Source: Escherichia coli (GTDB taxonomy: Bacteria > Pseudomonadota > Gammaproteobacteria > Enterobacterales > Enterobacteriaceae). Taken from it: a stretch of DNA of 64,000 nucleotides. Location: NCBI RefSeq assembly GCF_051903065.1, contig NZ_CP178438.1, one strand, 5' to 3'. Below the pieces are notes generated by a model that was not told the DNA's origin, made no database searches, and was given only the letters and a program-made list of their open reading frames with translations. The position numbers and the translations under genes are program-made. Shown in pieces: positions 5,322 to 26,198 of this stretch; the first letter of the stretch is position 1, and each line of letters opens with the position of its first letter.

Positions 5322-7241
5322 ATGAGTGGCGCTTTTAACAACGATGGTCGGGGCATATCTCCCTTAATTGCAACCTCCTGGGAGCGATGCAATAAGCTGA
5401 TGAAACGGGAGACATGGAACGTACCACATCAGGCCCAGGGCGTGACATTTGCTTCTATTTATCGGCGTAAGAAAGCGATGCTGACGCTCGGGCAGGCTGC
5501 GCTGGAAGATGCCTGGGAATATATGGCACCGCGAGAGTGTGCGCTGTTTATTCTCGATGAAACCGCCTGCATTCTCAGCCGTAATGGCGATCCGCAAACC
5601 TTGCAGCAGCTAAGTGCACTGGGATTCAATGACGGCACGTATTGCGCCGAGGGAATTATTGGTACTTGTGCGCTATCGTTAGCGGCTATCTCTGGTCAGG
5701 CCGTGAAAACGATGGCCGATCAGCATTTCAAACAGGCACTCTGGAACTGGGCCTTTTGCGCAACGCCGTTGTTTGACAGCAAGGGCCGATTGACGGGAAC
5801 AATAGCGCTGGCGTGTCCGGTTGAGCAAACTACCGCAGCTGATTTGCCGTTGACGTTGGCAATCGCCCGCGAGGTCGGTAATTTACTGCTGACGGACAGT
5901 TTGCTCGCTGAAACTAACCGTCATTTAAATCAACTTAATGCCCTGTTAGAAAGTATGGATGATGGCGTGATTAGCTGGGACGAGCAGGGTAATTTGCAAT
6001 TTATTAATGCCCAGGCGGCGCGGGTCTTGCGCCTTGACGCGACGGCAAGTCAGGGACGGGCAATCACTGAACTCTTAACGTTACCCGCCGTATTGCAACA
6101 AGCAATAAAACAGGCACATCCGCTCAAACACGTAGAAGCAACCTTTGAAAGCCAGCACCAGTTTATTGATGCGGTGATAACCCTTAAACCGATAATAGAA
6201 ACGCAGGGAACCAGCTTTATTTTGTTGCTCCATCCTGTGGAACAGATGCGGCAGTTAATGACCAGTCAATTAGGAAAAGTCAGCCATACCTTCGCTCATA
6301 TGCCACAGGACGATCCGCAAACCCGCCGCTTGATTCATTTTGGTCGCCAGGCGGCGCGCAGTAGCTTTCCTGTCCTGCTTTGTGGAGAAGAGGGCGTGGG
6401 CAAGGCACTGCTAAGTCAGGCAATTCATAATGAAAGCGAGCGTGCTGCAGGTCCTTATATCGCCGTCAATTGTGAGTTATATGGTGATGCGGCACTGGCG
6501 GAAGAATTTATTGGCGGCGATCGCACGGACAATGAAAATGGCCGTCTGAGTCGGCTGGAACTGGCGCACGGCGGCACGCTGTTTCTTGAAAAGATTGAAT
6601 ATCTGGCGGTGGAGTTACAGTCTGCTTTGCTTCAGGTTATCAAGCAGGGTGTTATCACGCGACTGGATGCGCGGCGTTTAATACCAATTGATGTCAAAGT
6701 GATTGCCACAACGACCGCGGACCTCGCAATGCTGGTGGAACAAAATCGTTTTAGTCGCCAGCTGTATTACGCGCTGCATGCATTTGAAATTACCATCCCG
6801 CCTCTGCGTATGCGGCGTGGCAGCATTCCGGCTCTGGTGAATAACAAATTACGCAGTCTTGAAAAACGCTTCTCTACGCGGCTGAAAATTGATGACGATG
6901 CCCTCGCTCGCCTGGTTTCCTGTGCATGGCCTGGCAACGATTTTGAACTTTACAGCGTCATCGAGAATCTTGCTCTGAGTAGTGATAATGGGCGCATTCG
7001 CGTCAGTGATTTGCCGGAACATCTGTTTACCGAGCAGGCAACAGATGATGTCAGCGCCACACGCCTTTCCACCAGTCTGTCATTTGCGGAAGTTGAAAAA
7101 GAGGCAATTATTAACGCAGCCCAGGTCACAGGCGGTCGCATTCAGGAAATGTCGGCTTTACTTGGAATCGGCCGCACTACGCTGTGGCGGAAAATGAAGC
7201 AACATGGCATTGATGCAGGGCAGTTTAAGCGCCGGGTATGA
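5322..7241 (+). CDS. dhaR: transcriptional regulator DhaR (enhancer-binding-protein family, C-terminal HTH)
   Basis: ORF 5313..7241; start moved to MSGAFNNDGRG (639 aa); divergent from dhaKLM. Confidence 0.92.
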   Translation: MSGAFNNDGRGISPLIATSWERCNKLMKRETWNVPHQAQGVTFASIYRRKKAMLTLGQAALEDAWEYMAPRECALFILDETACILSRNGDPQTLQQLSALGFNDGTYCAEGIIGTCALSLAAISGQAVKTMADQHFKQALWNWAFCATPLFDSKGRLTGTIALACPVEQTTAADLPLTLAIAREVGNLLLTDSLLAETNRHLNQLNALLESMDDGVISWDEQGNLQFINAQAARVLRLDATASQGRAITELLTLPAVLQQAIKQAHPLKHVEATFESQHQFIDAVITLKPIIETQGTSFILLLHPVEQMRQLMTSQLGKVSHTFAHMPQDDPQTRRLIHFGRQAARSSFPVLLCGEEGVGKALLSQAIHNESERAAGPYIAVNCELYGDAALAEEFIGGDRTDNENGRLSRLELAHGGTLFLEKIEYLAVELQSALLQVIKQGVITRLDARRLIPIDVKVIATTTADLAMLVEQNRFSRQLYYALHAFEITIPPLRMRRGSIPALVNNKLRSLEKRFSTRLKIDDDALARLVSCAWPGNDFELYSVIENLALSSDNGRIRVSDLPEHLFTEQATDDVSATRLSTSLSFAEVEKEAIINAAQVTGGRIQEMSALLGIGRTTLWRKMKQHGIDAGQFKRRV

Positions 7242-22502: not shown

Positions 22503-23366
<864 letters not shown>

Positions 23367-23417: not shown

Positions 23418-23513
23418 ATGGGTGCCGGATACAAAAAGGGCCGCAGGCTGTTACCCCTGCGGCCGGTTTCGGGCGCATATTGCCATCACGGCAGCCTGAC
23501 GCCCGTTTTCATC

Positions 23514-23621
23514 TTACTTCCGGTTACGCCACCAGCTGACAATCGCTGCGGTAATAATTCCCGCCAGGATCGGTGCTGCCAGGTCGTGCCAGAAAATCAT
23601 GGCAAACTGCGCGAGCGTCAT
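23514..23621 (-). CDS. ldrA: type I toxin Ldr (35-aa membrane peptide), copy 1
   Basis: Minus-strand ATG..TAA translating MTLAQFAMIFWHDLAAPILAGIITAAIVSWWRNRK; followed on the minus strand by hairpin GGCCGCAGG..CCTGCGGCC plus U-run (23430-23464). Confidence 0.9.
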   Translation of the reverse strand: MTLAQFAMIFWHDLAAPILAGIITAAIVSWWRNRK

Positions 23622-23668
23622 ATAGCCGCCTTGTTGTAATGACAACATTTTGCGGCTATTCTTGAATT

Positions 23669-23736
23669 GTTGATGGTTCAAGATTAGCCCCCGTTCTGTT
23701 GTCAGGTTTTACCTCTCAACGTGCGGGGGTTTTCTC
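23669..23736 (+). ncRNA. rdlA: Rdl antisense RNA (antitoxin), copy 1; ends approximate
   Basis: Plus-strand promoter-like TTGTAA-17bp-TATTCT (23634-23662), then about 66 nt ending in hairpin GCCCCCG..CGGGGG plus TTTTCTCTTT (23687-23740). Lies in the ldr leader on the opposite strand. Placement inferred from sequence; not confirmed against a reference. Confidence 0.45.
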
Positions 23737-24049
23737 TTTCCAGCAACCAATGCCACCAGGGATAAAGCCCCCGCAACATTGCGCCTCACCGGATAACGCC
23801 GGCTTGGTGTGGATACTACGACTCAATTCATCTTCACTTCATCCCTGAAATGTTTGCAATGAAGAGTGCATTCCGGTTTTTCAACAGCTGTTACAGTCGT
23901 TTCATGAGTGCTCTGGATGATGCTTCCAGCTCGGGTTGCCAATATTTACTTGTGGAAGTGATAAAGACAAAAATGGCCGCAGGCTGTTACCCCTGCGGCC
24001 GGTTTCGGGCGCATATTGCCATCACGGCAGCCTGACGCCCGTTTTCACC

Positions 24050-24157
24050 TTACTTCCGGTTACGCCACCAGCTGACAATCGCTGCGGTAATAATTCCCGC
24101 CAGGATCGGTGCTGCCAGGTCGTGCCAGAAAATCATGGCAAACTGCGCGAGCGTCAT
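24050..24157 (-). CDS. ldrB: type I toxin Ldr, copy 2 (identical peptide to copy 1)
   Basis: Same 108-nt ORF 536 bp downstream of copy 1. Confidence 0.9.
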   Translation of the reverse strand: MTLAQFAMIFWHDLAAPILAGIITAAIVSWWRNRK

Positions 24158-24204
24158 ATAGCCGCCTTGTTGTAATGACAACATTTTGCGGCTATTCTTG
24201 AATT

Positions 24205-24272
24205 GTTGATGGTTCAAGATTAGCCCCCGTTCTGTTGTCAGGTTTTACCTCTCAACGTGCGGGGGTTTTCTC
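24205..24272 (+). ncRNA. rdlB: Rdl antisense RNA, copy 2; ends approximate
   Basis: Same promoter and terminator arrangement, shifted 536 bp. Confidence 0.45.
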
Positions 24273-24585
24273 TTTCCAGCAACCAATGCCACCAGGGATA
24301 AAGCCCCCGCAACATTGCGCCTCACCGGATAACGCCGGCTTGGTGTGGATACTACGACTCAATTCATCTTCACTTCATCCCTGAAATGTTTGCAATGAAG
24401 AGTGCATTCCGGTTTTTCAACAGCTGTTACAGTCGTTTCATGAGTGCTCTGGATGATGCTTCCAGCTCGGGTTGCCAATATTTACTTGTGGAAGTGATAA
24501 AGACAAAAATGGCCGCAGGCTGTTACCCCTGCGGCCGGTTTCGGGCGCATATTGCCATCACGGCAGCCTGACGCCCGTTTTCACC

Positions 24586-24693
24586 TTACTTCCGGTTACG
24601 CCACCAGCCGACAATCGCTGCGGTAATAATTCCCGCCAGGATCGGTGCCGCCAGGTCGTGCCAGAAAGTCATGGCAAACTGCGCGAGCGTCAT
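24586..24693 (-). CDS. ldrC: type I toxin Ldr, copy 3 (variant peptide)
   Basis: Translates MTLAQFAMTFWHDLAAPILAGIITAAIVGWWRNRK; differs from copies 1 and 2 at two residues (I9T, S29G). Confidence 0.9.
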   Translation of the reverse strand: MTLAQFAMTFWHDLAAPILAGIITAAIVGWWRNRK

Positions 24694-24740
24694 ATAGCCG
24701 CCTTGTTGTAATGACAACATTTTGCGGCTATTCTTGAAGT

Positions 24741-24808
24741 GTCTGGTTTCAAGATTAGCCCCCGTTTTGTTGTCAGGTTTTACCTCTCAACGTGCGGGGG
24801 TTTTCTCT
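24741..24808 (+). ncRNA. rdlC: Rdl antisense RNA, copy 3; ends approximate, 5' region diverged
   Basis: Terminator hairpin conserved (AGCCCCCG..CGGGGG + TTTTCTCTTT) but the upstream 20 bp differ from copies 1 and 2 (GAAGTGTCTGGTTTCAAG versus GAATTGTTGATGGTTCAAG). Confidence 0.4.
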
Positions 24809-25097
24809 TTCCAGCAACCAATGCCACCAGGGATAAAGCCCCCGCAACATTGCGCCTCACCGGATAACGCCGGCTTGGTGTGGATACTACGTCTCAATTC
24901 ATCTTCACTTCATCCCTGAAATGTTTGCAATAAAGAGTACATTCCGGCTTTTCAACAGCTGTTGCAGTGGTTTCGTGCAGGTTGTGGTACAGGCTCGCAA
25001 TTCTGATTAACGACCTGTCCAGGTAGTATGAAGAAATACAATAAGCAGGAATTTATATTATCTCCCCCGATTTCCGTCATCGGAGGAGATATAACTG

Positions 25098-26198
25098 TCA
25101 GGCAAATATCGTCATCAAATAGGCGGCAAACAGTGCCAGATGCGCTGCGCCATTGAGCACGTTAGTACGTCCGGTGGAGAAGGAGATATGGCACAGCACT
25201 AAAGAGGCCACCATCACCACCATTTCTGGCGCACCAAGTGCAAACTGCAATTCGTTACCCGTCATAAATGCAATTAGCGTGACGACAGGTACGGTAAGCG
25301 AAATTGTTGCTAACACTGAACCAAAGAACAGATTCATCGCGCGCTGGACCTGGTTGTTCAACACTGCTTTTAATGCACCTAAACCTTCCGGCGACAGAAT
25401 CAACAGTGCCACCAGGAAGCCAGTAAAGGCGACAGGGGCATTCATGCTGTCGAGCAAAGTCTCCAGCGGGCTGGCGTTCATTTTGGTGACTGCAATAACG
25501 GCAATCAGGTGGATAATCAACCAGATAGCATGCCACAGGCTGCTATGGGCAGACGGTTTACCGTGGTGCGGGTCGTCGTCATCACTGTCATCTTCGTGCT
25601 CGTAGACAAACAAACTTTGATGCGTTTTGGTCTGGATCAGCAAAAATACGCCATACATTGCCGCAGAAATTAATGCTACCAGTAACGCCTGACCGGTTGA
25701 AAAATTCGCCGCAGGCAGAGCCATTGGAAATACCAGTACGATTATCGCCAGGGGGAACAGCGCAATTAAATACTGCTTAATACCAAACAGATTCATATAT
25801 TGGGTGGCAAACTTACGACCGCCCAACAATAATGAAAAGCCGACCAGCCCACCGGTAACAATCATAATGATCGAATAGAGCGTATCACGCATTAGCGTTG
25901 GCGCGGCGTCGCCGGTTGCCATTAAAGCTGAAATCAAACTGACTTCAAGAATAACCACTGAAAGGCTAAGAATAAGCGAACCGTAAGGTTCTCCCAGGCG
26001 ATGGGCTAATACGTCCGCATGACGGACAACACTAAAGGCGCTACTTAAAATACCAATAAGCGCAAGAAGATTGATGGCAATGACCACTGGTAGTGTCTGG
26101 CTGCTTCCCCACAGGAACAGCACTACCAGCGCCAGAACCGGGAAAATAAGCGAAGTCTCCTTGTGGCGGGTTTTTACCGCCTCTTGAGCATTTGACAT
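25098..26198 (-). CDS. chaA: Na+/K+(Ca2+):H+ antiporter ChaA
   Basis: ORF 25098..26285; trimmed to MSNAQEAVKTRHKETSLIFPVLALVVLF (366 aa). Confidence 0.93.
   Translation of the reverse strand: MSNAQEAVKTRHKETSLIFPVLALVVLFLWGSSQTLPVVIAINLLALIGILSSAFSVVRHADVLAHRLGEPYGSLILSLSVVILEVSLISALMATGDAAPTLMRDTLYSIIMIVTGGLVGFSLLLGGRKFATQYMNLFGIKQYLIALFPLAIIVLVFPMALPAANFSTGQALLVALISAAMYGVFLLIQTKTHQSLFVYEHEDDSDDDDPHHGKPSAHSSLWHAIWLIIHLIAVIAVTKMNASPLETLLDSMNAPVAFTGFLVALLILSPEGLGALKAVLNNQVQRAMNLFFGSVLATISLTVPVVTLIAFMTGNELQFALGAPEMVVMVASLVLCHISFSTGRTNVLNGAAHLALFAAYLMTIFA

What the first reader, a model, noticed from the sequence alone, without database searches (positions are those of the whole stretch)
24586..24978. 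Third ldr/rdl copy is diverged: two toxin substitutions, altered antitoxin 5' region, truncated repeat end
Copy 3 encodes I9T and S29G relative to copies 1 and 2. The first ~20 nt of its putative antisense RNA and promoter differ, and the repeat unit ends early (homology lost after about 24978). Differential regulation or cross-talk between non-identical toxin-antitoxin pairs in one array is plausible.
Basis: seen in the sequence. Interest (0 to 1): 0.4.

Follow-up and report, generated by a model that had tools for sequence, protein, structure and literature searches.

The report
Common ldr/rdl allele, not a decayed copy
The "diverged third copy" is an intact unit of the well-known E. coli Ldr/Rdl toxin-antitoxin repeat array, carrying the same toxin as K-12 LdrB and the same antisense RNA as K-12 RdlC, so it is ordinary strain-to-strain allele shuffling and not a new or decaying element.

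Summary
Window 23431-24978 is the E. coli long-direct-repeat (LDR) array between kdsA and chaA, with three ldr/rdl type I toxin-antitoxin units. Unit 3 encodes I9T and S29G relative to units 1 and 2. Its Rdl differs at nt 3-7 (with a 1-nt indel), at -2 and at +27. High identity stops at 24978.

None of this is strain-specific decay. The unit-3 toxin is identical to K-12 LdrB and its Rdl to K-12 RdlC. Its 225-nt toxin/antitoxin module is at least 99% identical in 1,927 of 5,425 E. coli records, more than the unit-1/2 module (1,653). It also scores higher than units 1/2 against Pfam Ldr_toxin and Rfam rdlD.

Across 34 units from 16 strains, residues 9 and 29 occur in all four combinations, and three Rdl 5'-tail types shuffle among array positions. 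That fits gene conversion or unequal crossing-over.

The "truncated end" is the array edge, the same as in K-12 LDR-C. Decayed in-register homology (51.5%) continues for 68 nt, and the inferred ldr promoter lies inside the conserved part.

One point is worth keeping. The variable patch is the unpaired Rdl 5' tail and also the apical loop of a conserved ldr-leader hairpin. It is the diversity hot spot of the unit. Pair specificity is therefore plausible but untested.

The parts
23431..24978 (.). LDR array: three tandem ldr/rdl units (unit starts about 23431, 23967, 24503) between kdsA (22512-23366, +) and chaA (stop at 25098, -)
   Evidence: same gene order as K-12 kdsA-ldrA-rdlA-ldrB-rdlB-ldrC-rdlC-chaA
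24511..24536 (-). intrinsic terminator hairpin of the unit-3 ldr mRNA (GGCCGCAGGGGTAACAGCCTGCGGCC followed by a T run); equivalents at 23439-23464 and 23975-24000
24586..24693 (-). unit-3 ldr CDS, 35 aa, T9/G29; identical to K-12 LdrB (WP_000170963.1)
   Evidence: Pfam PF13940 at 91.6 bits
24690..24752 (-). 20-codon leader ORF opened by the conserved UUG (24752-24750), with GGGGG 6 nt upstream. Its UGA overlaps the ldr AUG (AUGA). This is a candidate for the 'ldrX' leader proposed in the literature; that identity was not verified
   Evidence: ldrX model as described in PMC4147584
24706..24734 (+). inferred rdl promoter, TTGTAA-17 nt-TATTCT, identical in the three units
   Evidence: read from the sequence; invariant columns; 8 of 12 matches, below the scanner's threshold of 9
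24739..24747 (.). hypervariable patch: Rdl position -2 and nt +3 to +7 with a 1-nt indel; also the apical loop of the ldr-leader hairpin
   Evidence: (pi 0.31 against <=0.12 elsewhere in the homogenised core, 24511-24975)
24741..24806 (+). unit-3 Rdl antisense RNA, 66 nt, identical to K-12 RdlC over these 66 nt; unpaired 5' tail followed by a terminator stem-loop
   Evidence: Rfam RF01813 at 91.8 bits
24884..24889 (-). inferred -10 box of the ldr promoter (TAGTAT; TAGAAT in relatives). Cross-genus conservation begins here. The start site would be near 24877, giving an mRNA of about 370 nt
   Evidence: alignment of 15 units from 5 genera; inference, not mapped experimentally
24979..25046 (.). 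decayed last part of unit 3, with 51.5% in-register identity to the inter-unit junction; this is the array edge
   Evidence: same flank in K-12 LDR-C
23514..23621 (-). unit-1 ldr CDS (I9/S29, same as K-12 LdrA/LdrC); its Rdl lies at 23670-23735 (+)
24050..24157 (-). unit-2 ldr CDS (I9/S29); its Rdl lies at 24206-24271 (+)

Best explanation
Unit 3 is a complete, presumably functional ldr/rdl type I toxin-antitoxin module. It is the chaA-proximal unit of the conserved E. coli LDR array. Its differences from units 1 and 2 are standing alleles of the species, moved between units and strains by gene conversion and unequal crossing-over. The toxin is the LdrB allele, the antisense RNA is the RdlC allele, and units 1/2 are a near-identical recent duplicate of an LdrA-type unit with a third Rdl-tail type.

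The drop in homology at 24978 marks the edge of the array. Beyond it, homogenisation stops and old homology has decayed. No functional part is missing.

How the module works. Shown for LdrD/RdlD and LdrA in the literature: the 35-aa membrane peptide is toxic when overproduced, and the roughly 66-nt cis-antisense Rdl blocks its synthesis by pairing with the long 5' UTR; the duplex is an RNase III substrate. Inferred here: Rdl covers a hairpin holding a GGGGG-N6-UUG leader start, so pairing would prevent leader translation that runs into the ldr AUG. The variable patch sits in the hairpin loop and the unpaired Rdl tail, the likely first contact point.
For: Identity: Rfam rdlD hits for all three units, with unit 3 the best; Pfam Ldr_toxin, with unit 3 the best; K-12 annotation and sequence identity to LdrB and RdlC.

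Common allele: the 225-nt unit-3 module is >=99% identical in 1,927 of 5,425 records, against 1,653 for unit 2. The whole array is 100% identical in NZ_AP045789.1, and 71 records are >=99%.

Shuffling: the array has 1-3 copies across 5,425 genomes. Among 34 units, residues 9/29 occur as IG 11, IS 9, TG 9 and TS 5, and three tail types combine freely with them. The mosaic pattern against K-12 A/B/C is shown.

Intactness: terminators, identical rdl promoter hexamers, and a conserved -10 at 24884-24889 inside the homologous part.

Edge.

Mechanism: PMC4147584, PMC8167048, PMC7373196, PMC12643268 and PMC8309996; hairpin and loop; unpaired tail and duplex energies; leader ORF.
Against: No expression or toxicity data exist for this strain. 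Promoters and transcription starts are inferred from conservation only; the consensus scan found no promoter at its threshold. The hairpin stem never varies among the 11 sequences, so covariation neither supports nor refutes it. Only the enclosing helix shows a compensatory A-U to G-C change. The reading-frame relation of the leader ORF to ldr differs between units and species, which weakens any single coupling model. Reviews state that the mechanism of Rdl action is still unresolved.
Confidence: 0.88

Rival explanations
1. Insulated paralogues. The 9-bp patch is a specificity code kept diverse by selection. Rdl of units 1/2 would then fail to repress ldr of unit 3 efficiently, and the reverse. 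The array would hold two independently controlled toxin-antitoxin pairs, one of them duplicated, as with the cognate-only Sib/Ibs pairs.
For: The patch is the diversity hot spot of the unit (pi 0.31 against <=0.12 in the rest of the homogenised core). It is also the most variable stretch of Rdl across genera. It lies in the unpaired Rdl 5' tail and in the loop of the target hairpin. Non-cognate tail pairing loses about half its predicted energy. Precedent: the Sib target-recognition domains lie in the variable regions and set specificity (PMC2943612).
Against: About 59 of 66 nt stay complementary between non-cognate pairs, and the full duplex energy is still about -118 kcal/mol. Units 1 and 2 share an identical Rdl. 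K-12 RdlB and RdlC differ by only one unpaired nt, so many co-resident pairs are not insulated. High diversity could equally reflect relaxed constraint on a loop. No experiment on Rdl cross-repression turned up in the searches.
Confidence: 0.3
2. Translational-control variant. The main effect of the 1-nt indel is on the leader ORF. In unit 3 the UUG-initiated leader is 20 codons and stops on the ldr AUG (AUGA), which would allow coupling. In units 1/2 the same UUG is in frame with ldr and would give a 55-aa N-terminally extended peptide.
For. In all 11 family members the ORF from the UUG reaches the ldr AUG without a stop. An N-terminal tag abolishes LdrA toxicity (PMC8309996), so an extended product could be inactive.
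Against: There is no evidence that the UUG is used. The absence of stops may only reflect nucleotide conservation imposed by the overlapping rdl promoter and RNA. The frame relation is 0, +1 or -1 in different relatives. I could not check where the published ldrX lies, because the papers are not held.
Confidence: 0.15
3. Decaying copy. Unit 3 is a degenerating, truncated repeat on its way to becoming a pseudogene.
For: It is about 96% identical to units 1/2, whereas they are 99.8% identical to each other. High identity stops 58 nt before the unit end.
Against: The 35-codon ORF is intact and has the PXXXG motif, the WW pair and the charged tail (motif as in PMC7472228). It scores higher on Pfam and Rfam than units 1/2. 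Terminators and promoter elements are present. An identical module occurs in about a third of E. coli genomes and equals the K-12 alleles. All Rdl changes fall at unpaired positions.
Confidence: 0.02
4. Misreading or assembly artefact in a repeat.
For: Tandem repeats of about 536 bp can be collapsed or mis-phased in assemblies.
Against: The 1,861-bp array with its flanks is 100% identical in an independent complete genome, NZ_AP045789.1. Every variant state is found in other strains.
Confidence: 0.01

Closest known systems
E. coli K-12 LDR-A/B/C array (ldrA-rdlA, ldrB-rdlB, ldrC-rdlC; Kawano et al. 2002, as cited in PMC4147584)
   Same: Same locus between kdsA and chaA, the same approximately 535-bp units, the same orientation, and the same right-hand edge. 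The unit-3 toxin is identical to LdrB and its Rdl is identical to RdlC. The unit-1/2 toxin is identical to LdrA/LdrC.
   Different: The allele order differs. K-12 has A(I-S, GTTCTGG tail), B(T-G, GTCTGG tail), C(I-S, GTCTGG tail). This window has two near-identical I-S units with a third tail type (GTTGATGG), followed by a unit that joins the B-type CDS to the C-type Rdl and flank.
ldrD/rdlD (LDR-D), the experimentally studied member
   Same: A 35-aa toxin of the same Pfam family. Rdl lies opposite the 5' UTR with the same core (AAGATTAGCCCCCG...CGGGGGTTTTCT). The leader hairpin and the -10 box are conserved.
   Different: A different chromosomal site (bcsG-yhjV). It is a single copy, the toxin is more diverged, and the tail is different (GGTCTAGAGTC). 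The leader UUG is in frame with ldrD.
hok/sok (mok leader) of plasmid R1
   Same: Works alike in outline: a long 5' UTR, an antisense RNA that does not cover the toxin start, and a proposed leader ORF whose translation is needed for toxin synthesis (PMC4147584, PMC8167048).
   Different: The toxin and RNA sequences are unrelated. Coupling in ldr is proposed but not demonstrated, and the leader frame is not conserved.
Ibs/Sib multi-copy type I systems
   Same: Multiple near-identical cis-antisense pairs in one genome, some in tandem, with variable patches inside otherwise conserved sRNAs. For Sib these patches are shown to set cognate specificity (PMC2943612).
   Different: The family is unrelated. 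Sib overlaps the whole ibs ORF. Specificity of Rdl has not been tested.

Membership tests
Ldr/Rdl type I toxin-antitoxin (LDR repeat) | 35-aa hydrophobic peptide matching Pfam Ldr_toxin (PF13940), with a PXXXG motif, tryptophan after the transmembrane helix and a charged C-terminus | tested here: met
   Unit 3 scores 91.6 bits and units 1/2 score 86.0 bits against a cut-off of 27, over the full length 1-35. P17-G21, W30 W31 and RNRK are present. Motif definition from PMC7472228.
Ldr/Rdl type I toxin-antitoxin (LDR repeat) | Cis-encoded antisense RNA of about 66 nt opposite the 5' UTR of ldr, matching Rfam rdlD (RF01813) | tested here: met
   91.8, 83.6 and 83.6 bits against a gathering score of 50, covering the full model 1-66. 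The match lies 48 nt upstream of the ldr AUG on the opposite strand.
Ldr/Rdl type I toxin-antitoxin (LDR repeat) | Long direct repeat of about 530 bp in tandem between kdsA and chaA | tested here: met
   Spacing 536/535 nt. Flanking genes. Present at this site in 5,425 of 5,426 complete E. coli genomes.
Ldr/Rdl type I toxin-antitoxin (LDR repeat) | Own promoter and terminator for both transcripts | tested here: inconclusive
   Terminator-like hairpins were found for all ldr and rdl transcripts. Promoters are inferred only: rdl TTGTAA-17-TATTCT, and an ldr -10 TAGTAT conserved across genera. The consensus scan found none at its threshold.
Ldr/Rdl type I toxin-antitoxin (LDR repeat) | Peptide toxic on overproduction; toxicity relieved by the cognate Rdl | not testable with these tools
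   Shown for LdrD/RdlD and LdrA in the literature. I found no data for the T9/G29 (LdrB) peptide or for this strain.
K-12 LdrB / RdlC alleles | Sequence identity to the K-12 gene products | tested here: met
   The unit-3 peptide equals the ldrB product and carries the same accession, WP_000170963.1. The 66-nt unit-3 Rdl equals the first 66 nt of the 68-nt rdlC annotation.
hok/sok-type control through a coupled leader ORF | Leader ORF whose start is covered by the antisense RNA and whose translation runs into the toxin start | tested here: inconclusive
   A UUG with GGGGG 6 nt upstream lies inside the Rdl target. The ORF reaches the ldr AUG in 11 of 11 relatives, but in three different frame relations. 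Use of the UUG is untested.
Sib/Ibs-type cognate discrimination | Variable recognition domains that make each sRNA repress only its own mRNA | not testable with these tools
   Only the precondition is met: a variable patch at unpaired positions of both partners. No functional data.

The most novel reading that the evidence does not exclude
The 9-bp hypervariable patch (Rdl nt 3-7, which is also the loop of the ldr-leader hairpin) may be a selected specificity code. It would make co-resident Ldr/Rdl pairs of one array orthogonal, as the variable recognition domains do for Sib/Ibs. Its 1-nt indel would at the same time switch the leader ORF between an in-frame N-terminal extension (units 1/2) and a stop-start overlap, AUGA (unit 3). 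The array would then hold functionally distinct modules, not redundant copies.
Probability: 0.2. Interest if true: 0.4.

Novelty: already known. Interest (0 to 1): 0.1.

Why it matters
As it stands, this has little importance. It is a textbook chromosomal type I toxin-antitoxin array, and the "divergence" is ordinary allelic mosaicism. It does illustrate concerted evolution in a short tandem array: a homogenised core, decayed edges, and copy number varying from 1 to 3. One lead remains. The mechanism by which Rdl controls ldr is still described as unresolved (PMC8309996). The natural variation mapped here points to a single short element, the Rdl 5' tail and target-hairpin loop with its leader UUG, as the place to test recognition and specificity.

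Tried and rejected
- Tandem Repeats Finder returned nothing, probably because the period exceeds its 500-nt limit. The repeat finder and MAFFT were used instead.
- The sigma-70 consensus scan found no promoter. The rdl promoter matches 8 of 12 positions and the scan needs 9, so promoters were read by eye and from conservation.
- NCBIfam gave no hit for either peptide.
- The 15-mer scan of genome contigs returned 118 loci, mostly chance matches in unrelated phyla. About 10 were real relatives: Escherichia albertii, E. whittamii, Escherichia sp. E1V33, Citrobacter sedlakii, Kluyvera and Pseudocitrobacter. The E. albertii locus lay at a contig end and gave no peptide.
- The primary papers (Kawano 2002 in Mol Microbiol and in DNA Res, Kawano 2012 in RNA Biol, Fozo 2008 in MMBR) are not held. 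The mapped transcript ends and the published position of ldrX could not be checked.
- The polarity of I/T at residue 9 and S/G at residue 29 could not be settled. Outgroups carry I, M or A at 9 and S, G or N at 29.
- Rejected: pseudogene or decay; assembly artefact; "promoter differs" (hexamers are identical); "truncated unit" (the same edge as K-12 LDR-C, and decayed homology continues).
- No YUNR U-turn motif is evident by eye in the target loop, so that hok/sok-style feature was not claimed.

Full report
**What is in the sequence**

Window 23431-24978 holds three direct repeats spaced 536 and 535 nt apart. They lie between kdsA (22512-23366, + strand) and chaA (- strand, stop at 25098). Each unit carries four elements:
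- a 35-codon ORF on the - strand (23514-23621, 24050-24157, 24586-24693);
- a terminator-like hairpin downstream of that ORF;
- a full-length match to Rfam rdlD (RF01813) on the + strand, 48 nt upstream of the ORF's AUG (23670-23735, 24206-24271, 24741-24806; 83.6, 83.6 and 91.8 bits against a gathering score of 50);
- a full-length match of the peptide to Pfam Ldr_toxin (PF13940).

This is the E. coli long-direct-repeat (LDR) array of ldr/rdl type I toxin-antitoxin modules. Gene order and orientation match K-12 MG1655: kdsA-ldrA-rdlA-ldrB-rdlB-ldrC-rdlC-chaA.

**Checking the observation**

- Unit 3 encodes I9T and S29G relative to units 1/2, plus one synonymous change.
- Its Rdl differs in a compact patch at 24739-24747 (position -2 and nt +3 to +7, with a 1-nt indel) and at 24767 (nt +27).
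- High identity ends at 24978.

Two details were overstated.
- The differing stretch is about 9 bp, not about 20 nt.
- The rdl promoter hexamers that I read from the sequence (TTGTAA 24706-24711, 17-nt spacer, TATTCT 24729-24734) are identical in all three units.

Units 1 and 2 differ at one internal position. Unit 3 differs from unit 2 by 17 substitutions and one indel over 476 nt.

**What unit 3 really is**

- The unit-3 peptide is identical to K-12 LdrB (RefSeq WP_000170963.1). Its 66-nt Rdl is identical to K-12 RdlC. The unit-1/2 peptide is identical to K-12 LdrA and LdrC.
- Site by site, unit 3 shares the three CDS states and 24932 with K-12 LDR-B, and shares 24767 and everything from 24969 onward with K-12 LDR-C. 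It is a mosaic of known alleles.
- It is closer to the family profiles than units 1/2: Rfam 91.8 against 83.6 bits, Pfam 91.6 against 86.0 bits.

**Population context**

- The locus is present in 5,425 of 5,426 complete E. coli genomes, with one, two or three units.
- The exact 1,861-bp array is 100% identical in NZ_AP045789.1, and 71 records are at least 99% identical.
- The 225-nt CDS-plus-Rdl module of unit 3 is at least 99% identical in 1,927 of 5,425 records, including O157:H7. The unit-2 module reaches that level in 1,653.
- In 34 units from 16 strains, residues 9/29 occur as I-G (11), I-S (9), T-G (9) and T-S (5), that is, all four combinations.
- Three Rdl tail types (GTTGATGGTTC, GTTCTGGTTC, GTCTGGTTTC) combine with those residues and occupy different array positions.

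This is the signature of gene conversion and unequal crossing-over in a small tandem array, not of one copy drifting away.

**The "truncated" end**

The right-hand boundary is the same as that of K-12 LDR-C. Homology is not wholly lost there. Positions 24979-25046 retain 51.5% ungapped in-register identity to the inter-unit junction (0 of 20,000 shuffles reach this; other registers give 26-37%). The left flank of unit 1 shows none.

The simplest reading is that unit 3 is an old full-length copy. Its core is kept similar to its neighbours by conversion, and its outer edge, next to unique DNA, has escaped homogenisation.

Nothing functional seems to be missing. An alignment of units from Escherichia, Citrobacter, Kluyvera and Pseudocitrobacter shows that conservation begins sharply at a TAGAAT/TAGTAT box (24884-24889 in unit 3). 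This is the probable ldr -10 element. The sequence upstream of about 24915 is not conserved across genera. A start near 24877 and the terminator at 24511-24536 would give an mRNA of about 370 nt (inference).

**Where the differences fall**

- All Rdl changes are at positions predicted to be unpaired. Nt 3-7 lie in the single-stranded 5' tail, and nt 27 lies in the two-nucleotide internal loop of the terminator stem.
- On the ldr strand, the same patch forms the apical loop of a hairpin (GGGCUAAUCUUGA-loop-UCAAGAAUAGCC) in the consensus fold of 11 leaders.
- The stem of that hairpin is invariant, so covariation says nothing either way. An enclosing helix has a compensatory A-U to G-C change in two sequences.
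- This 10-nt bin is the diversity hot spot of the unit. Its pi is 0.31. Bins in the CDS and Rdl stem reach at most about 0.06, and no other bin of the homogenised core exceeds 0.12.
- It is also the most variable part of Rdl across genera.

**Mechanism**

Established for relatives:
- LdrD and LdrA are 35-aa inner-membrane peptides, toxic on overproduction. Reported effects are an ATP drop, growth arrest and nucleoid condensation.
- RdlD relieves LdrD toxicity by acting on the long 5' UTR, not on the toxin's ribosome-binding site.
- The ldrD-rdlD overlap yields RNase III-dependent dsRNA.
- A leader ORF, ldrX, has been proposed by analogy with mok of hok/sok, but reviews still call the mechanism unresolved (PMC4147584, PMC8167048, PMC7373196, PMC12643268, PMC8309996).

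Inferred here:
- Inside the Rdl target lies a conserved UUG preceded by GGGGG at 6 nt.
- The ORF it opens reaches the ldr AUG without a stop in all 11 relatives examined.
- In unit 3, as in K-12 A, B and C, it is 20 codons long and its UGA overlaps the ldr AUG (AUGA).
- In units 1/2, the extra base in the patch puts the UUG in frame with ldr, giving a potential 55-aa product. The same is true of LDR-D and several other genera.
- I could not confirm that this ORF is the published ldrX.

**Cross-talk**

Predicted pairing of the 17-nt Rdl tail to a non-cognate leader is about half as stable as to its own (-13.6 against -26.5 kcal/mol). The full duplex stays very stable (-118 to -120 against -133 to -137 kcal/mol).

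If the tail and loop nucleate pairing, the patch could confer specificity. That is how it works in hok/sok (from my own knowledge), and the variable recognition domains of Sib RNAs do the same job (PMC2943612). If pairing starts elsewhere, the units will cross-react.

Units 1 and 2 have identical Rdl RNAs and are redundant in either case. The literature searches turned up no published test.

**Verdict**

The element is the well-known LDR-A/B/C array, and the third unit is an intact, common allele: the LdrB toxin, the RdlC antitoxin and the LDR-C flank. The novelty class is "already known" and the interest is low. The residual lead is that the patch may be a specificity and leader-frame switch; this is recorded as the novel case.

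Noticed in passing
L009 (E. coli O157:H7 86-24), equivalent to window 24763-24768: The chaA-proximal unit is otherwise almost identical to window unit 3. It has a 6-bp deletion (CCCGTT) that removes part of the 5' arm of the Rdl terminator stem and, on the other strand, part of the GGGGG tract before the leader UUG. The ldr CDS is intact. Another O157:H7 strain (TR01) has the undeleted module.
   Followed up: partly
window 24979-25046 vs 24444-24511: Decayed in-register homology (51.5%, 0 of 20,000 shuffles) runs beyond the apparent repeat end. The left flank of the array has none (26.6%). The array edge appears to have escaped homogenisation.
   Followed up: yes
window 23681/24217 (units 1, 2) and 24752 (unit 3), - strand: A conserved UUG with GGGGG 6 nt upstream lies inside the Rdl target. 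It is in frame with ldr in units 1/2 (55-aa ORF). In unit 3 it opens a 20-codon leader that ends on the ldr AUG. The frame relation varies among relatives, but no stop ever precedes the AUG.
   Followed up: partly
ldr 5' UTR, e.g. window 24806-24870 (- strand) and alignment A2 columns 28-94: Three G/C-rich elements (GCGGGGG, CCCCCGC, CGGGGGC) in the leader can pair in alternative ways. The consensus fold pairs the first two. The second and third would form the complement of the Rdl stem. This could be a conformational switch, reminiscent of hok mRNA.
   Followed up: no
hit H26 (E. coli F5446, NZ_CM153269.1) and 33 plasmid places: One strain has an IS200C-family transposase gene annotated within the stretch that matches the array query, and a few plasmids carry matches to it, e.g. 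NZ_CP010135.1 with kdsA and one ldr unit.
   Followed up: no
L093 (Escherichia whittamii), 5469-6022: E. whittamii has a two-unit tandem array (spacing 539) with the GTTCTGG tail in both units and the same terminal flank type as E. coli. The tandem arrangement appears to predate the split of these species.
   Followed up: partly
window 25062-25090: An inverted repeat (TCTCCCCCGAT...ATCGGAGGAGA) lies directly downstream of the chaA stop and looks like the chaA terminator. chaA and the unit-3 ldr are on the same strand, so read-through from chaA would enter the ldr promoter region (not analysed).
   Followed up: no
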